DNA of 64,000 bases from Naegleria gruberi (lineage: Eukaryota), in NCBI GenBank assembly GCA_000004985.1, contig GG738883.1; one strand, 5' to 3'. Shown piece after piece: positions 38,164 through 48,109 of the stretch. The notes beneath the pieces were generated by a model that had not been told where the DNA came from, ran no database searches, and saw only the letters and a list, made by a program, of their open reading frames with translations. The first letter of the stretch is position 1. The number at the start of each line of letters is the position of its first letter. Both the position numbers and the translations under genes were made by a program.

Positions 38164-39861
38164 ATGGCTTCCACTGCACTCCGTGTTGTTTATAACAATT
38201 TGATTGAACATGTCAGAAAGTACAAGATTCTCCAATCGGTGAATGCTCTTGCTGATTGGGATGAGTTAGTCATGATGCCTCCAAAGGGTGCTGAATCAAG
38301 AGGATTGCAAAAGACTGTCTTGGCTTCTTTGACTCACGATTTGCAAACTTCTCCACTCATTGAAAAGTATCTTTCGGAATTGGTAACTACTCAAGATGAT
38401 CAAAAGATTGTAGTGAAGAATGATTCCGAATTTGATGAATATGAAATTTCCAATATTATTCTCATCCATAAGGAATTTATAAGAAATACTAAAATTACAA
38501 AGGAATTGGTTGAGAGAGCTTCTGAATTATCTAGTCGTGGATATCATCAATGGGTTGAAGCTAGAAAGAAAAGTGATTGGACCTTGTTCCAAGACACTCT
38601 CCAAGAATGGGTTAACATTCGTAAGGAAATGAGTTTGTTGATTGAACCAAATCAAAATATTGCTGATACTTTGCTTGACGAATATGATCCTGGAATGACA
38701 TGTGAACAAGTTGCTCAAGTTTTTGAAGATGTCAAGAAGGAATTGATTCCACTCATTCAAGCCATTAGAAAGAAGGTTGAAGAAAATCCAGAAAAATACA
38801 GTGATGCTTCCTTGCTTGCCAAGATTCAAGCTGGTGCAGATGAATTGTTTGATCAAAAGGAACCGTTCCCAGTTGAAAAGCAAACTGAACTCTCCAAGCA
38901 AGTAGCTCAAGAATTAGGTTTCGATTTTGAAATGGGTAGATTGGATGTCAGTGTTCACCCATTCAGTACTTCATTCTCAACCAATGATGTCAGAATTACT
39001 ACCAGATATAATACTAAGGAATTCGTTAATGGTTTGGGTATGTTTTTTTGATGAATTATTGAAATTTATTTACCACATCATTTGGATAATTTGATTATCA
39101 TCATATAATTTACATTATCTTATTCTTGAATAATTACAGCTGGTACTGTACACGAAACAGGACACTCACTCTATGAAGCTGGTCTCAATCCACTCTATGC
39201 CTATCAACCAGTTCAATCTGCTCTTGGTACTACCATCCACGAAAGTCAATCCTTGTTCTGGGAAAGACATGTTGGTTTGAGTAAGGGATTCTGGAGAAAG
39301 TGGTTGCCAGTTGCTGAAGAATTGTTCCCATACTTGAAGCAAAAGAAATTGAGCGTTGATGACATTTACAGATCTGCCAATACTGTCACCCTCAATAACT
39401 TTATCAGAATTGAAGCTGATGAATTGACCTATCCAATGCACGTAATTCTTAGATTTGAAATAGAAAAGGGATTATTGGATGGATCAATCAGTGTTGCTGA
39501 TGTTCCAAAAGTTTGGAATGCCAAAGTTAAGGAATATTTGGGACTTGATGTTCCAAATGATGCTAAGGGTGCTCTCCAAGATGTCCACTGGAGTTCAGGC
39601 GCTTTTGCCTATTTCCCAACATATCTTCTTGGTGCTATGGCCTCTGCTCAAATCTCTGCATCCATTCCAGATTTTGAAAAACACATTGAAGAAAATAACT
39701 ATGCCTTCTTGAAGAATTGGTTGAATGAAAACATCCACAAGAGAGGTACTGTTACATTGACCTCTAACAAGTTGCTTAAGGAAGCTACTGGTTCTGAATT
39801 GAATCCAAAGATCTTTGTTAACTATCTCAAGACTAAATACAGTGCTCTCTATGATCTTTAA
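38164..39861 (+). CDS. M32-family metallocarboxypeptidase (carboxypeptidase Taq-like), two exons
   Basis: Exon 1 is 38164-39037. The intron is 39038-39139 (GTATGT...TTACAG). Exon 2 is 39140-39861. The spliced product contains 'GTVHETGHSLYEAG' (HExxH zinc site), 'TIHESQSLFWERHVG' (the HES motif) and a C-terminal 'DVHWSSGAFAYFPTY', all M32 hallmarks. Confidence 0.85.
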
Positions 39862-41687: not shown

Positions 41688-42200
41688 TCAATATGTATAT
41701 TAATGTTAGATGGTTACATCATCAACACTTCAACACTAAGCAAACACTAAAACATCATCTTTCCAATAAATTTGATTCATTCCTTTGTGATTGTATTAGC
41801 AATAACGTTTCCTTCCACTAAGCAACACAAACCTCAAAGAACGGATTAAGAAGCCACTCAATAATTCAACGCCACCATAAACAGCCTCCTTAATACGAGA
41901 ACTATCAATTAATGAATAATTTCCAGAACAATTTTTCGCTTTGTAGACTTGTATGTTCCCCATTTTCTCCAAATATGAACCTTCCATGAATAAAGAAGGC
42001 ATTTCTTCTGAATTGGGTATTAATTGTGTTAGACACTAGTCCTGCATTTCAACAACAACATCATAGGTGGCGACATCCACTCTCTCTTTTGCTTTCATTT
42101 TCATTACCTGGGCAATTATTCATCCTGATTCATCCAAACTAAGAACCAAATTAAAGGCTAAATAATAATACTTCAAAAACTCATAAAAAAACATACAACA

Positions 42201-43950
42201 ATGATGCGTTCCTCTTTACAACAATCTGTTCAAAAGATTTCATCCTTTTCCAAACTCATGGGAAGAAACAATATTTCTGCCTGTTCGTATGGTATTAACA
42301 ATATTCCATTCGAAAAGAAGGTTATGGATGCCAAGACTGCTCTCACTTCGTTCATCAAGGGAGGAAACAGAGTTTTCGTTCAAACTGGTAAGTGTTTTTG
42401 AAGCATTGTATGGAGTTTGTATAATTTTGAATTGTTTTACTGTACTATTATTGCCACTTGTTTGTATTCCGGAACTGATGATTCAATTCCAATATATATT
42501 TACATATTCGTCATCTTCATTATCCACTTTTTGATTTTCATCATCAATTCATTACTGTTTATATGAATATAATTATTATATTAAAATTCAAAAGGTTGCA
42601 ACGTTCCAAAGCACCTTATCAAGAGTTTGGATACACTCATCGATGAAAAGGAAAAGACCTTTGCCGATAATAAGAAGAGAATTGAATTCGTAGGTCTCCA
42701 TATTAACTATTATCCAGGAGAACAACCACCACACATGAGTGGTAAAAATAGAGAATACTTCCACACAAATGCCATCTTTAACGGTGCTTCGGAAAGAGCT
42801 GGTATGAAAGATAGAAGTGGTGAAGAATTACCACTTGTCGATTACTTGCCAATCTTTTTGAGTGAAGCTCCAATTTTGTTCAAGAGTGGTAAATTCCCAC
42901 TTGATGTTGCTTTGATTCAAGTTTCCCCACCAGATAGCCACGGTTATTGGTAAGTACTAGTATAATTTGAATTTTGTGAAATAATTATTACCTTAATTAG
43001 TTCACTTGGTGTCTCTGTCGATATTTCCTTGTCTGGTGTTCAATCTGCTAAATATGTCATTGCTCAAATTAACAAGAATGTCCCAAGAACTCACGGTGAT
43101 GGTTTCATTCACATTTCTCAAATTGATGCTTTCGTTAAGCATGACGAACCACTTTCTGAAATTCCATGTAATATTCATGAACTTGATGAAGTTGACAGAA
43201 AGATTGGTGAAAATGTTGCTCAATTGATTCCAGATAGAGCTTGTTTGCAATTGGGTGTCGGAAGTTTGCCAAATGCTGTTTGTGCTGCATTGACAAATCA
43301 CAAGGATATTGGTATCCACACTGAATTGATGTCTGATGGTGTTTTGGAATTATTCAAGAAGGGAGTTGTCACTAACAAGTATAAGGGAGTTCACCCTAAT
43401 GAAATTTTGTGTACTTTCGTCATGGGTTCAAGAAACATTTACGATTTCGTTGATGACAATCCACAAGTCATTTTCAGAGGAGCTGACTTTGTCAATGATA
43501 TTAACAATATTAAGCAAAATAAGAATATGATTGCTGTCAACAGTGCTATTGAAATTGATTTTACTGGTCAAGTTTGTGCTGACTCTATTGGTACCAGAAT
43601 GTACTCTGGTGTTGGTGGTCAAGTAAGTATTTAAATAGTTCAATAATAATTTATGCAATATTTAGATGGACTTTATGGTAGGTTCAGCAAAGAGTGAAGG
43701 TGGTAAGCCAATTATGGCCATTCCATCCCTTACATCAAATGGTGAATCAAAGATTGTCAATACTCTCAAGGAAGGTGCTGGTGTCGTTACTACAAGAGCT
43801 CACGTTCACTATGTCTGTACTGAATATGGTATTGCTGAATTGTATGGTAAGAACGTTGTTCAAAGAGCTAAGGCCTTGATCAGTATTGCTCACCCAATGC
43901 ATCGTGAAAGATTGACTTTTGAAGCTAAGAAACGTTTCGGTTATTTCTAA
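42201..43950 (+). CDS. acetyl-CoA hydrolase/CoA-transferase family protein (Ach1 / 4-hydroxybutyrate CoA-transferase / ASCT subtype-1C-like) with an N-terminal targeting-like sequence; at least four exons
   Basis: The 5' exon is about 42201-42387 with a GTAAGT donor at 42388; I could not fix how it joins exon 2. The later exons are 42594-42949, 43001-43622 and 43666-43950. Their introns are 42950-43000 and 43623-43665, both GTAAGT...TAG. The spliced 'PDSHGYCSLGVSVD', 'SAIEIDFTGQVCADSIGTRMYSGVGGQMDFMVGSAKSEGGKPIMAIPS' and 'YVCTEYGIAELYG' are family signatures. Confidence 0.8.
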
Positions 43951-44075: not shown

Positions 44076-45089
44076 ATGTCTGAAGAAGAAATACAACAAA
44101 TATCATCATCGGAGGAAAATATTACAACAGATGAAGAAGAAAAATCCTTGGAAGAATTAGAACAACAACTTGCTCAATTTAATGAACAATTACAACAATG
44201 TATTTTACTTTCCGAACAAGAACCAGAATCAACTGAATATTCATCACTGATTGAAGATTTACAAAATGCCATCAATTTGACAACGGAATTAATTAATATT
44301 AAATTATCGGAACAACAACAGACTCATAGTAATACAATTGTGGAATCTGCAGTACCATTATATCAAGAGGGAGATTATTGTTATGGTCTTTATGAAGGTT
44401 TATGGTATGTGGCTGTTGTTACTAAAATCATAGATAACACCAAAAAGCTTGCCGAGTCAAGCATCAAGAAACCTTCTTTTGAATATTTAGTTAGATATGT
44501 TGGATATGGAAATTCTGAATTTATTTCAAAAGAAAGATATACCATTAAGGATTATTCACACCCTCCAACTGAATATTTACAATCAGGATCTAAATGTCTT
44601 GCTGTCAATGCCAATGATCCTGATGGACTCTATGAAGATGCCGTTGTTGATAAATTGACAGAAAAAGAAACGGTTTGGGTCACATTTAAGGAGAGAGGAA
44701 TCATGCAAGAAGTTCCATTAAGACTGATAAGACTTGCCTCTGATCATTTCTATGATCCAAAATTCAAACCAAAGAAATTCAAAAAACCAGAAACCACAAG
44801 CAATACTACCACTGTTGCTTCTACTGCTGCTGCAACAGCCATCACCCAAGAAAAGAAGGAGCAAGCTGAAATTATTGCCAAAAAGAAAAAGAAGCAAGAA
44901 AAGAGACAAGCCAAACAAAAGGAAGAGGAAAAAAACATTAATGAAAGAAAACAAAGTTGGCAATCCTTCAAGAATAAGAACTCTGGTAATTACAAGAATA
45001 CTGGAAAGACATTACAATCCTCAGAAAAGACCTTCACTCCCGCCCAAAAGAAAACCAAACATTCACACCCAACTAGTTCTCAACAATAA
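44076..45089 (+). CDS. tandem-Tudor-domain protein with an acidic coiled-coil N-terminus and a Lys-rich C-terminus
   Basis: Two Tudor-like cores are present ('YQEGDYCYGLYEGLWYVAVV', 'GSKCLAVNANDPDGLYEDAVV'). The ATG is at 44076. Confidence 0.5.
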   Translation: MSEEEIQQISSSEENITTDEEEKSLEELEQQLAQFNEQLQQCILLSEQEPESTEYSSLIEDLQNAINLTTELINIKLSEQQQTHSNTIVESAVPLYQEGDYCYGLYEGLWYVAVVTKIIDNTKKLAESSIKKPSFEYLVRYVGYGNSEFISKERYTIKDYSHPPTEYLQSGSKCLAVNANDPDGLYEDAVVDKLTEKETVWVTFKERGIMQEVPLRLIRLASDHFYDPKFKPKKFKKPETTSNTTTVASTAAATAITQEKKEQAEIIAKKKKKQEKRQAKQKEEEKNINERKQSWQSFKNKNSGNYKNTGKTLQSSEKTFTPAQKKTKHSHPTSSQQ

Positions 45090-45364: not shown

Positions 45365-48109
45365 ATGCAAAACGAAGGTAAAGAACAACAAAAAGCCGGA
45401 GGTTTCTTCTCCTCACAAAACAAGAGAAGTGAAATCAACGAATGGAGATTGGGCTTGGGAAATGAAAAGGAATCCGTCAGAAAGGATACAGTCAAGAAGG
45501 TTATTGCTGCCATGACTGTCGGTAAAGACGTTTCCATGTTGTTCACTGATGTCATCAAGTGTGTTGCTACCAACAATATCGAACTTAAGAAGTTGGTCTA
45601 TCTTTATATTATGAATTATGCTAAGACTCAACCAGATTTGGCTATCATGGCTGTCAATCAATTCGAAAGAGACTCTAACCATCCAAATCCTTTGATCAGA
45701 GGTTTGGCTGTCAGAACTATGGGTTGTATCAGAGTTAACAAGATTGTCGAATATTTGGCTGAACCAATTAGAAAGACAATCAAGGATAAGGATCCATACG
45801 TCAGAAAGACAGCTGCTGTTGCCATTGCTAAATTGTTCGATATTAATGCTGAAATGGCTATTGAGCAAGGATTTGTTGAAGCTTTGGAAGAATTGTTGAC
45901 TGATGACAACCCTATGGTTGTTGCTAACGCTGTTAAAGCTTTGGATGAAATTTCATCAACATCAAGTGAAGTTATTCTTGATTTCACAGAAAAGACTGTC
46001 AAGACTCTCTTGGCTGCTTTGAACCAATGTACAGAATGGGGTCAAGTTTTTATTTTGGATGCTCTCTCAAATTATCAACCAAAATCTGATAAGGAAACTA
46101 CTGAAATTGCTGAAAGAGTTGCTCCACGTTTGCAACATGCCAACTCTGCTGTCGTCCTTTCTGCTGTCAGAGTTATTAACAAGATGATTGATTTGATTAG
46201 CAATGAAAATGAAAAGAATGAATTGATCCAAAAGATCTCTGCTCCTCTTGTCACATTGTTGAGTGGTAACCCAGAAATTCAATATGTTGCTTTGCGTAAT
46301 ATTGACTTGATTGTCCAAAGTAGACCAGGTATTCTTGCTAACAATATCAAGATGTTCTTCTGTAAATATAACGATCCTATTTATGTCAAGTTGGAAAAGT
46401 TGGATATTATGGTTAAATTGGCTTCTGAACGTAACGTTGATACTGTTTTGATGGAATTCAAGGAATATGCCACTGAAGTTGACGTTGAATTTGTCAGAAG
46501 AAGTGTCCGTGCTATTGGTAGATGTGCCATTAAGCTTGAAAGAGCTGCCCAAAGATGTGTTGATGTTTTGCTTGATTTGATTCAAACTAAGGTTAACTAT
46601 GTCGTCCAAGAAGCTATCATTGTCATTAAGGATATTTTCAGAAGATATCCAAACAAGTATGAAGGTATTATTGGTAAGCTCTGTGAAAACCTCGATACTT
46701 TGGATGAACCAGAAGCTAAGGCTTCTATGATTTGGATTATCGGTGAATATTCCAACAAGATTGAAAATGCTGACGAATTGTTGCAAATCTTTATTGATAC
46801 TTTCCACGATGAAACTTCTCTTGTTCAATTGCAAGCCCTTACTGCTGTCATGAAGCTCTTCTTGAGAAGACCAAACGACACTAGAGATTTGATCAAGAAG
46901 GTTCTCCATTTGTCTACTGAAGAATCTGATAACCCAGATTTGCGTGACAGAGGTTACATTTATTGGCGTTTGCTCAATGAAGACCCAGAAGCTGCTAAGG
47001 CTGTCGTCTTGTCTGAAAAGCCAGTCATTAGAGATGACTCTACCAACATTCCAAAGACCTTGTTGAACGAATTGGTCAAGCATATTGGTACTTTGTCATC
47101 AGTCTATCATAAGCCTCCAGAATTGTTCGTTGCTGGTTACAAGAAGAAGAAGAGTGAATCTGGTGAAGATAAGGAAGTTGAAGATTACCTCAGAGAACAA
47201 CAACACCAAGATGCTGCTGACAGAACTACCACCCAAGATATTCTTGGTTTGGATGACGTTTTGGGAATGGGTACTGGTGCTCCAGCTCAAGATTCTGGTG
47301 ATCTTGATTTGGATGATGTTTTGGGTGTTGGTTCATCTCAACCTCAATTACAATTCTCTGCATCAACATCTGCCAATGCCAACGTTACTTCTCTCGTTCG
47401 TCCAGCTCCACAAAAGAAGTTGTTGCTCACTGCTGATAAGAGCAAGGGTCTCCAAATTTATGGTGCCATCAATAGAAATGCCAGAGGTGGACTCGAATTC
47501 TTGGTCACTTTTGAAAATCTTTCACAACAACCAATCACTGGTTATGCTTGTAAATTCAACACAAACACTTTCGGTTTCGTCCCAGGACAAGTTCAAGCTA
47601 ATGGTATTATGCCTGGTCAAAAGACTGATGGTATTGTTCCAATCCTCCCTGGTAACAATGAATCTGATAAGGTTTCTCCACTTATCCAAGTTGCCATCAA
47701 GACTGATTTGGGTGTTGCTTACTTTGCTGATAGCATTCCATTCAGTGCCTTGTTCATTGAAAATGGTTCTTGTGATAGAGATACTTACCTCACTCTCTTC
47801 CAAAGCATTCCAGATGAAACTGAAAGCACTACTGATGCTCCAAACGCTTCTGCTGGTAATGCTAGCGCTCTCATTTCTAGATTGCAAGCTCACAACATTT
47901 TCTTCGTTGCTGACCATCAAGATGCTGGTTTGACCAACTATTACTTCTCTGCCAAATTCAACTATGGTACTGAAGAAGTTATTGCTCTCTTGGAAATTGT
48001 TGTTAGTGCCAACTCACCACAATGCAAGATTAATACCAGATGTGCTGAAACTCAATTCATCCCATTCATTGAACAAGATGTTGCCAGAATTGTTTCCCTC
48101 ACTTTCTAA
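45365..48109 (+). CDS. AP-1/AP-2 adaptor complex beta subunit (beta-adaptin), intronless
   Basis: 'VKKVIAAMTVGKDVSMLFTDVIKCVATNNIELKKLVYLYIMNYAKTQPDLAIMAVNQFERDSNHPNPLIRGLAVRTMGCIRV' is near-identical to the AP2B1/AP1B1 trunk as I recall it. The appendage and ear domains are present in the 914-aa product. Confidence 0.9.
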   Translation: MQNEGKEQQKAGGFFSSQNKRSEINEWRLGLGNEKESVRKDTVKKVIAAMTVGKDVSMLFTDVIKCVATNNIELKKLVYLYIMNYAKTQPDLAIMAVNQFERDSNHPNPLIRGLAVRTMGCIRVNKIVEYLAEPIRKTIKDKDPYVRKTAAVAIAKLFDINAEMAIEQGFVEALEELLTDDNPMVVANAVKALDEISSTSSEVILDFTEKTVKTLLAALNQCTEWGQVFILDALSNYQPKSDKETTEIAERVAPRLQHANSAVVLSAVRVINKMIDLISNENEKNELIQKISAPLVTLLSGNPEIQYVALRNIDLIVQSRPGILANNIKMFFCKYNDPIYVKLEKLDIMVKLASERNVDTVLMEFKEYATEVDVEFVRRSVRAIGRCAIKLERAAQRCVDVLLDLIQTKVNYVVQEAIIVIKDIFRRYPNKYEGIIGKLCENLDTLDEPEAKASMIWIIGEYSNKIENADELLQIFIDTFHDETSLVQLQALTAVMKLFLRRPNDTRDLIKKVLHLSTEESDNPDLRDRGYIYWRLLNEDPEAAKAVVLSEKPVIRDDSTNIPKTLLNELVKHIGTLSSVYHKPPELFVAGYKKKKSESGEDKEVEDYLREQQHQDAADRTTTQDILGLDDVLGMGTGAPAQDSGDLDLDDVLGVGSSQPQLQFSASTSANANVTSLVRPAPQKKLLLTADKSKGLQIYGAINRNARGGLEFLVTFENLSQQPITGYACKFNTNTFGFVPGQVQANGIMPGQKTDGIVPILPGNNESDKVSPLIQVAIKTDLGVAYFADSIPFSALFIENGSCDRDTYLTLFQSIPDETESTTDAPNASAGNASALISRLQAHNIFFVADHQDAGLTNYYFSAKFNYGTEEVIALLEIVVSANSPQCKINTRCAETQFIPFIEQDVARIVSLTF

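What the first reader, a model, noticed from the sequence alone, without database searches (positions are those of the whole stretch)
42201..43950. Acetyl-CoA hydrolase/CoA-transferase gene with an N-terminal targeting-like exon and unresolved 5' splicing
Exons 2-4 encode an Ach1 / 4-hydroxybutyrate-CoA-transferase / ASCT-1C-type enzyme (HGYCSLG; SAIEIDFTGQV...SGVGGQMDF; YVCTEYG). A first exon (42201-42387, MMRSSLQQSVQKISSFSKLMGRNNISACSYGI...) looks like an organelle-targeting sequence. Its GTAAGT donor at 42388 is in phase 1, and I could not find a phase-compatible acceptor into exon 2 at 42594. There may be an unrecognised micro-exon in 42400-42590, or an alternative donor at 42372 (GTTTTC). 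In anaerobic and microaerophilic protists this enzyme family makes acetate in mitochondrion-related organelles. Its presence hints at acetate/succinate-type energy metabolism.
Basis: partly seen in the sequence, partly recalled or inferred. Interest (0 to 1): 0.5.

Follow-up and report, generated by a model that had tools for sequence, protein, structure and literature searches.

The report
Naegleria mitochondrial-type CoA-transferase gene, splicing resolved
This is an ordinary four-exon Naegleria gruberi gene for a 4-hydroxybutyrate-CoA-transferase-like (ASCT subfamily 1B type) enzyme with a mitochondrial-presequence-like N-terminus, and the "unresolved splicing" was a one-base counting slip.

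Summary
The gene is real. Its 5' splicing resolves cleanly. The GTAAGT donor at 42388 (phase 1) joins the AG at 42593-42594, so exon 2 starts at 42595, not 42594. No micro-exon or alternative donor is needed.

The model is exons 42201-42387, 42595-42949, 43001-43622 and 43666-43950, giving 482 aa. The junction peptide VFVQTG|CNVPK matches the N. fowleri ortholog (78% identity). The N. fowleri gene has an intron at the same codon and phase.

The window is Naegleria gruberi nuclear DNA: the neighbouring beta-adaptin is 100% identical to the deposited N. gruberi protein.

The enzyme is a family I CoA-transferase (PF02550 + PF13336). Solved 4-hydroxybutyrate CoA-transferases match at E about 1e-122, Ach1/AarC-type enzymes only at about 1e-11. 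By published definitions this is ASCT subfamily 1B (Fasciola type), not 1C. Subfamily 1B was already predicted for N. gruberi mitochondria.

The first 37 residues have no bacterial counterpart, carry four basic and no acidic residues, and recur in all heterolobosean homologs. That fits a mitochondrial presequence but is not proven.

N. gruberi is a strict aerobe that excretes no acetate, so the "anaerobic acetate production" inference is weak. Interest is low. One minor point: no N. gruberi protein model for this gene was found in the protein collection.

The parts
42159..42161 (+). In-frame TAA stop upstream of the start codon. It closes the reading frame 42 nt before the ATG.
42201..42387 (+). 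Exon 1, covering aa 1-62 plus the first base of codon 63. It starts ATGATG with A at -3.
42201..42311 (+). Presequence-like N-terminal extension, aa 1-37: MMRSSLQQSVQKISSFSKLMGRNNISACSYGINNIPF. It has 4 K/R, 0 D/E and 8 S/T, and no counterpart in bacterial homologs.
42388..42594 (+). Intron 1: 207 nt, GTAAGT...AAAAG, phase 1, 25% GC. It has stops in all frames and a 178-nt AG-free stretch before the acceptor. The N. fowleri ortholog has an intron at the same codon and phase.
42595..42949 (+). Exon 2, covering aa 63-181. This is the N-terminal CoA-transferase domain, ending ...PPDSHGYC with codon 181 split.
42950..43000 (+). Intron 2: 51 nt, GTAAGT...TTAG, phase 2. The position is shared with N. 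fowleri.
43001..43622 (+). Exon 3, covering aa 181-388. It contains the G-V267-G loop and the start of the C-terminal domain, up to SGVGGQ.
43323..43325 (+). Codon GAA for Glu289. This residue aligns with the catalytic glutamate of family I CoA-transferases.
43623..43665 (+). Intron 3: 43 nt, GTAAGT...TTAG, phase 0. It is absent from the N. fowleri ortholog.
43666..43950 (+). Exon 4, covering aa 389-482 plus the TAA stop at 43948-43950.

Best explanation
The locus is a nuclear, four-exon gene of Naegleria gruberi. It encodes a 482-aa family I CoA-transferase of the 4-hydroxybutyrate-CoA-transferase-like clade. [quoted passage not shown]

Shown here:
- The exon/intron structure, with three GTAAGT...AG introns in phases 1, 2 and 0.
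- The two Pfam domains.
- Full-length colinearity with solved 4-HB-CoA-transferases.
- Conservation of the nucleophile position (Glu289), the G-V-G loop 22 residues upstream of it, and the GVGGQxDF motif.

Inferred from the family's established chemistry: the enzyme works by a ping-pong mechanism. Glu289 attacks the acyl-CoA thioester and forms a glutamyl-CoA thioester, releasing the first carboxylate. The CoA is then passed to a second carboxylate.

Inferred: the 37-residue basic, acid-free, Ser-rich N-terminal extension, encoded in the same exon as the start of the catalytic domain, directs the protein to the mitochondrial matrix. There it would interconvert acetyl-CoA + succinate and acetate + succinyl-CoA, working with succinyl-CoA synthetase.

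N. gruberi does not excrete acetate but oxidises added acetate readily. The physiological direction may therefore be acetate (or another short-chain acid) activation rather than acetate production. The substrate pair is not established.
For: Gene model. The spliced CDS is 1449 nt and open, with consensus splice sites. Introns are AT-rich and closed in all frames. The junction sequence NRVFVQTG|CNVPKHL matches N. fowleri NRVFLQTGCNVPKYL and N. lovaniensis. The N. fowleri genomic locus has introns at the same codon and phase for introns 1 and 2. Solved bacterial enzymes align without a break across the junction, query 38-473 against 9vag 4-417.

Organism. The adjacent beta-adaptin ORF is 100% identical to N. 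gruberi AP-1 beta1, 90% to N. fowleri and 81% to Willaertia.

Family. PF13336 scores 9.9e-63 and PF02550 scores 2.8e-23. 4-HB-CoA-transferase structures score 7e-122 to 7e-91, against 3e-16 to 7e-9 for the Ach1/AarC type. A rotifer (metazoan) homolog shows 46% identity at 1e-119.

Active site. Glu289 aligns with residue 238 of chain 3gk7 and is invariant in 11 sequences. The V267-E289 spacing of 22 equals the V227-E249 spacing in RipA (PMC3180442).

Extension. Bacterial homologs begin at query residue about 38. All five heterolobosean homologs that have a complete N-terminus carry 37-70 extra residues with no acidic residue and net charge +2 to +8. Only 1 of 25 control ORF N-termini in the window has this composition.

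Literature. The 4-HB-CoA-transferase-like enzyme is ASCT1B, it was predicted in N. gruberi mitochondria, and it was found by mass spectrometry in Acanthamoeba mitochondria (PMC3785491).
Against: - No transcript data were available, so the splice junctions and the start codon rest on homology and consensus only.
No canonical R-2/R-3/R-10 cleavage motif is evident by eye.
- In-frame Met20 and Met42 could give shorter products.
- Substrate specificity cannot be read from the sequence. The nearest NCBIfam model (butyryl-CoA:acetate CoA-transferase) scores far below its cut-off, 269 against 675 bits.
- N. gruberi showed no acetate, propionate or succinate excretion under the conditions tested (PMC6205838). 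This argues against an acetate-forming role in trophozoites.
Confidence: 0.8

Rival explanations
1. Exon 1 and exon 2 are joined through an unrecognised micro-exon in 42400-42590, or through an alternative donor at 42372 (GTTTTC).
For: The 42372 donor can be paired in frame with AGs at 42611 or 42623.
Against: The phase clash disappears once exon 2 starts at 42595. The 42372 pairings delete VFVQTGCNVPK(HLIK), which is conserved in Naegleria orthologs and paralogs and partly in bacteria (F59, P67 and L70 are nearly invariant). GTTTTC is a poor donor, whereas all three introns of this gene start with GTAAGT. Intron 1 has stops in all frames and no AG between 42416 and 42592, so no internal acceptor exists for a micro-exon. 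N. fowleri has a single intron at the identical position.
Confidence: 0.02
2. The enzyme is made without a presequence, by transcription or translation starting at Met42 (or Met20). It would then be cytosolic, or dually localised. The upstream part of exon 1 would be 5' UTR or a fortuitously open frame.
For: Met42 sits where the bacterial proteins start. One deposited N. fowleri model uses a later start than the other, 481 against 508 aa. An open frame of 41 codons has roughly a 5% chance of arising by accident in DNA of this composition (my estimate). No predictor or experiment supports import.
Against: The first ATG has A at -3 and is preceded by an in-frame stop. Residues 27-41 (ACSYGINNIPFEKKV) are conserved with N. 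fowleri and N. lovaniensis (ASYGSVNGPFNARV), upstream of the bacterial start. The acid-free, basic character is shared by all heterolobosean homologs, including Pharyngomonas and the Naegleria paralog. The Acanthamoeba ASCT1B is experimentally mitochondrial (PMC3785491).
Confidence: 0.12
3. The protein is a mitochondrial CoA-transferase, but its physiological job is not acetate formation from acetyl-CoA. It may activate acetate or other short-chain acids (propionate, butyrate, 4-hydroxybutyrate) with succinyl-CoA or acetyl-CoA as donor, or it may act as an acetyl-CoA hydrolase. This differs from the best explanation only in substrate and direction.
For: The closest characterised relatives are 4-hydroxybutyrate and butyryl-CoA transferases. 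Family I enzymes are promiscuous (PMC3180442). N. gruberi oxidises added acetate and fatty acids to CO2 and excretes no acetate (PMC6205838). Naegleria keeps two paralogs, which suggests divided roles.
Against: Eukaryotic members of this clade that have been assayed (Fasciola ASCT1B) are acetate:succinate CoA-transferases according to the literature cited in PMC3785491. No specificity determinants were tested here.
Confidence: 0.35
4. The gene is bacterial contamination or a very recent, non-functional lateral transfer.
For: Most of the closest database relatives outside the Heterolobosea are bacterial, at 52-57% identity, from many phyla.
Against: The gene has three spliceosomal introns with eukaryotic consensus sites. 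Exon GC is 37-40%, against 30-41% per kb across the window. The gene lies 125 nt upstream of the next eukaryotic gene. Orthologs are present in N. fowleri and N. lovaniensis with two shared intron positions, and a homolog is present in Pharyngomonas.
Confidence: 0.01

Closest known systems
Naegleria fowleri FDP41_011623 / CAG4707753.1 and N. lovaniensis C9374_003555 (annotated 'hypothetical protein' / 'Acetyl-CoA hydrolase')
   Same: These are orthologs at 77-78% identity over the full length. They have the same N-terminal extension type and the same lineage-specific insertions. N. fowleri shares the positions of introns 1 and 2.
   Different: N. fowleri has four introns, two of them at other positions, and lacks the window's intron 3. 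The neighbouring genes differ.
ASCT subfamily 1B (Fasciola hepatica-type acetate:succinate CoA-transferase; Acanthamoeba mitochondrial ASCT1B)
   Same: The window protein is a eukaryotic, 4-hydroxybutyrate-CoA-transferase-like enzyme of about 480 aa with an N-terminal extension. It was already predicted for N. gruberi mitochondria (PMC3785491). A metazoan (rotifer) family member is 46% identical.
   Different: No activity or localisation data exist for the Naegleria protein. I could not align it directly with the Fasciola or Acanthamoeba sequences, because they were not retrievable here.
Bacterial 4-hydroxybutyrate CoA-transferases with solved structures (9vag, 2oas Shewanella, 3eh7 Porphyromonas, 3gk7 Clostridium aminobutyricum AbfT) and Yersinia RipA
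   Same: The domain order is the same. The alignment is colinear from residue 38 to the C-terminus. The catalytic Glu, the G-V-G loop and the GGQxDF motif are conserved.
   Different: The bacterial enzymes lack the 37-aa N-terminal extension. They also lack three short Naegleria insertions in the N-terminal domain, at about aa 78-90, 98-101 and 134-142.
ASCT subfamily 1C / Ach1 / AarC type (Trichomonas hydrogenosomal ASCT, yeast Ach1, Acetobacter AarC)
   Same: It belongs to the same Pfam clan (PF02550/PF13336) and has the same ping-pong chemistry.
   Different: The relationship is only distant. E values are 1e-9 to 1e-16 and matches are confined to the C-terminal half. TIGR03458 scores 90 bits against a cut-off of 659.

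Membership tests
Family I CoA-transferases, acetyl-CoA hydrolase/transferase group (Pfam PF02550 + PF13336) | Both domains are present, in N-to-C order, above the Pfam gathering scores. | tested here: met
   PF02550 scores 83.4 bits (cut-off 24) at aa 50-230. PF13336 scores 211.1 bits (cut-off 23.7) at aa 323-474.
Family I CoA-transferases, acetyl-CoA hydrolase/transferase group (Pfam PF02550 + PF13336) | A conserved active-site glutamate that forms the glutamyl-CoA thioester (RipA Glu249, per PMC3180442; AbfT Glu238 from my own knowledge). | tested here: met
   Glu289 aligns with residue 238 of 3gk7 and is invariant in alignment A1. It lies 22 residues after the G-V-G loop, as in RipA. Catalytic competence itself was not tested.
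4-hydroxybutyrate-CoA-transferase-like clade (eukaryotic ASCT subfamily 1B) | The protein is closer to 4-HB-CoA-transferases than to the Ach1/Cat1/AarC (1C) or SCOT (1A) types. | tested here: met
   PDB matches: 4-HBCT 7e-122 to 7e-91, Ach1/AarC 3e-16 to 7e-9. NCBIfam: the SCOT subunit B model scores 34 bits and YgfH scores 90 bits, against 269 bits for the butyryl/4-HB type. The definition of 1B comes from PMC3785491.
4-hydroxybutyrate-CoA-transferase-like clade (eukaryotic ASCT subfamily 1B) | Measured acetate:succinate CoA-transferase activity. | not testable with these tools
   This needs a recombinant enzyme assay. The equivalog models in NCBIfam are all far below their cut-offs, so no specific substrate can be assigned.
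   Only the C-terminal roughly 215 aa align, at E 1e-9 to 1e-11, with 8dh7, 4eu3, 5ddk and 2g39.
Mitochondrial matrix proteins with a cleavable N-terminal presequence | An N-terminal extension relative to bacterial homologs that is rich in basic and hydroxylated residues and free of acidic residues. | tested here: met
   aa 1-37 have 4 K/R, 0 D/E and 8 S/T, and the first acidic residue is at 38, where homology to bacteria begins.
Mitochondrial matrix proteins with a cleavable N-terminal presequence | Predicted or observed import and cleavage (TargetP/MitoFates score, MPP site, localisation). | not testable with these tools
   No targeting predictor is available. The maximum helical hydrophobic moment of 0.57 is not distinctive against the controls. 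No clear R-2/R-3 motif was seen by eye.

The most novel reading that the evidence does not exclude
This may be a second ASCT1B-type paralog of N. gruberi that is missing from the deposited annotation. In this strictly aerobic amoeba it might run 'backwards', activating acetate (or another short-chain acid) with succinyl-CoA in the mitochondrion. That would help explain why an enzyme regarded as a hallmark of anaerobic ATP generation is retained in an obligate aerobe. The two Naegleria paralogs would then have divided substrate or direction roles.
Probability: 0.2. Interest if true: 0.4.

Novelty: already known. Interest (0 to 1): 0.12.

Why it matters
The value is mainly annotation hygiene. 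The work gives a complete, homology-validated gene model for a Naegleria gruberi CoA-transferase, including the N-terminal extension that any localisation prediction needs. It also corrects the subfamily label from 1C to 1B.

ASCT-type genes in aerobic protists such as Naegleria and Acanthamoeba feature in the debate on the origin and role of 'anaerobic' mitochondrial enzymes. A correct full-length model is therefore a prerequisite for expression, localisation and enzymology experiments. It does not change current understanding.

Tried and rejected
No model, pLDDT profile or fold search was obtained.
- Exact look-ups of the Tudor-like neighbour and of the N. gruberi paralog P0004 found no contigs. 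The adaptin look-up returned only a 3.8-kb metagenome contig. I therefore could not see how the reference annotation treats this locus.
- A search with the exon-3 peptide alone found no 100%-identical N. gruberi model. That search returned only proteins of 362 aa or less. Together, it argues that no model of this gene is in the collection, but it does not prove it.
- The Fritz-Laylin 2010 genome paper is not held, and the Bexkens 2018 supplements are not held. Literature searches for Naegleria + acetyl-CoA hydrolase or 4-hydroxybutyrate gave nothing further, and a search for 'Glu238' gave nothing.
- I considered and rejected a micro-exon, the 42372 donor, the GT at 42394 as donor (it inserts KC, has no consensus and is not in the orthologs), and bacterial contamination.

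Full report
**What is in the sequence**

The + strand between 42201 and 43950 carries four open segments separated by short AT-rich stretches. Each stretch begins with GTAAGT and ends with AG.

Joining 42201-42387, 42595-42949, 43001-43622 and 43666-43950 gives a 1449-nt open CDS and a 482-aa protein. The introns are 207, 51 and 43 nt, in phases 1, 2 and 0. My first attempt used exon ends two to four bases off and gave a broken frame. The corrected coordinates are those.

**The "unresolved" exon 1-2 junction**

The acceptor AG is actually at 42593-42594, so exon 2 starts at 42595.

The last base of exon 1 (G, 42387) plus GT (42595-42596) reads Gly63. The frame then runs on as CNVPKHLIKSLDTLIDEK into the long exon-2 ORF that the ORF listing reports from 42627.

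I enumerated every GT..AG pair between 42300 and 42640 that keeps the frame open.
- The consensus donor at 42388 has exactly one compatible acceptor, at 42594.
Those pairings delete 11-15 conserved residues.

Intron 1 is 25% GC, against 37-40% for the exons. It contains stops in all three frames and no AG dinucleotide between 42416 and 42592. There is therefore no internal acceptor for a micro-exon.

**Independent support for the junction**

- The N. fowleri and N. lovaniensis orthologs read NRVFLQTGCNVPKYL where the window reads NRVFVQTG|CNVPKHL.
- In the N. fowleri genomic locus (L002), exon 1 ends ...CAA ACT G|GTATGT and resumes ...TCTAG|GA TGT AAC GTT CCA AAG. That is an intron at the same codon and the same phase.
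- Intron 2, after HGY-TG, is also shared.
- Solved bacterial 4-hydroxybutyrate CoA-transferases align without a break across the junction, query 38-473 against 9vag residues 4-417.

**Organism**

The adjacent single-exon ORF 45365-48109 is 100% identical over 914 aa to the deposited Naegleria gruberi AP-1 beta-1 adaptin. It is 90% identical to N. fowleri and 81% to Willaertia magna.

Other neighbours are ordinary eukaryotic genes: an M32 carboxypeptidase, an EF-hand protein, an amino-acid transporter and NELF-B/COBRA1. The window is N. gruberi nuclear DNA.

**What the protein is**

Pfam finds the acetyl-CoA hydrolase/transferase N- and C-terminal domains well above threshold.

Against the PDB:
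- The best matches are 4-hydroxybutyrate CoA-transferases (9vag 7e-122, 2oas 9e-118, 3eh7, 3d3u, 3gk7), followed by Yersinia RipA (about 2e-75).
- The Ach1/AarC/'acetyl-CoA hydrolase' group reaches only 3e-16 to 7e-9, and only over the C-terminal half.

NCBIfam gives the same ranking. No equivalog model comes near its cut-off, so no specific substrate can be assigned.

At the active site:
- Glu289 aligns with residue 238 of the Clostridium aminobutyricum enzyme. From my own knowledge, that is its catalytic glutamate.
- Glu289 is invariant in an 11-sequence alignment.
- It lies 22 residues after a G-V-G loop, exactly as catalytic Glu249 follows Val227 in RipA (PMC3180442).
- The GVGGQMDF motif is also invariant.

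That paper describes the ping-pong glutamyl-CoA thioester mechanism as the family's defining chemistry. I infer it applies here.

**Subfamily**

Leger et al. (PMC3785491) define the eukaryotic ASCT subfamilies as follows.
- 1A is the SCOT-like type (Trypanosoma).
[quoted passage not shown] - 1C is the Trichomonas/fungal type.

A rotifer family member is 46% identical at E 1e-119.

I could not retrieve the Fasciola, Acanthamoeba or Trichomonas sequences for a direct tree.

**N-terminal extension**

Bacterial homologs begin 2-6 residues before the conserved K-x-x-S-A-x-E-A motif, which corresponds to window residue about 38.

The Naegleria orthologs, the Naegleria paralog (N. lovaniensis C9374_009753) and the Pharyngomonas kirbyi homolog all carry 37-70 extra residues.

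In the window the extension is MMRSSLQQSVQKISSFSKLMGRNNISACSYGINNIPF. It has four basic residues, no acidic residue and eight Ser/Thr. The first acidic residue is at position 38. The other heterolobosean extensions are likewise acid-free, with net charge +2 to +8. Only one of 25 control ORF N-termini from the window has this composition.

The start ATG has A at -3 and an in-frame TAA 42 nt upstream. Residues 27-41 are conserved with N. fowleri, which argues that this stretch is translated.

All of this fits a mitochondrial presequence. However, no predictor could be run, the amphipathicity measure was not distinctive, and Met20 and Met42 remain possible alternative starts.

**Physiology**

For N. 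gruberi this idea dates from the 2010 genome paper.

Later labelling and NMR work showed a strict aerobe that oxidises fatty acids, and added acetate, to CO2. No detectable acetate, propionate or succinate was excreted (PMC6205838; commentary in PMC6856725).

The gene's presence is thus a known and so far unsupported hint. A role in activating acetate or other short-chain acids is at least as plausible. This is inference only.

**Paralogy and annotation**

Naegleria has two paralogs.
- Type A comprises the window gene, N. fowleri FDP41_011623 and N. lovaniensis C9374_003555.
- Type B comprises N. lovaniensis C9374_009753 and N. gruberi 'predicted protein' P0004.

P0004 is 357 aa and starts in the middle of the N-terminal domain, so it looks truncated.

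Neither a full-length query nor an exon-3 query recovered a 100%-identical N. gruberi protein. This gene model therefore seems to be absent from the deposited protein sets. I could not inspect the reference annotation directly.

**Verdict**

The puzzle was a one-base counting error. The family assignment is right at superfamily level but wrong at subfamily level. The biological inference is already in the literature and is weakened by experiment. The finding is ordinary and of low interest.

Noticed in passing
window 42201-43950: No N. gruberi protein identical to this gene's product, or to its 207-aa exon 3, was found in the 5.8-billion-protein collection, although the neighbouring adaptin is present at 100%. 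The gene may be missing from the deposited N. gruberi annotation.
   Followed up: partly
P0004 (N. gruberi 'predicted protein', 357 aa; not in this window): The only N. gruberi family member in the collection is the other paralog. It begins MFFGPHERKAL, in the middle of the N-terminal domain, so the model looks N-terminally truncated.
   Followed up: partly
L002 6001-7941 (N. fowleri VFQX01000009.1): The ortholog has four introns. The first two are at the same codon and phase as window introns 1 and 2, two are at other positions, and window intron 3 is absent. Two deposited N. fowleri models use different start codons (508 against 481 aa). The flanking genes (PUB-domain protein, penicillin amidase) are not those of the window.
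   Followed up: partly
window protein aa ~78-90, 98-101, 134-142 (about 42640-42830): Three short insertions in the N-terminal domain are shared by both Naegleria paralogs but absent from bacterial homologs and from Pharyngomonas.
   Followed up: no
window 38164-39051 (+): This ORF matches the M32 carboxypeptidase Taq family (3e-59) over the first half of the profile. It is probably one exon of a larger gene.
   Followed up: no
window 44076-45089 (+): A 337-aa acidic/lysine-rich ORF starts only 125 nt after the CoA-transferase stop codon. It has no Pfam hit, and by eye its middle part looks Tudor/SMN-like.
   Followed up: no
L001 (ENA ERZ929261, contig k127_249238): A 3.8-kb metagenome contig encodes the identical 914-aa beta-adaptin, which means N. 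gruberi DNA is present in that metagenome sample.
   Followed up: no
window 46067-47083 (-): A 338-aa ATG-started ORF lies antisense inside the beta-adaptin gene. It is most likely a chance open frame.
   Followed up: no
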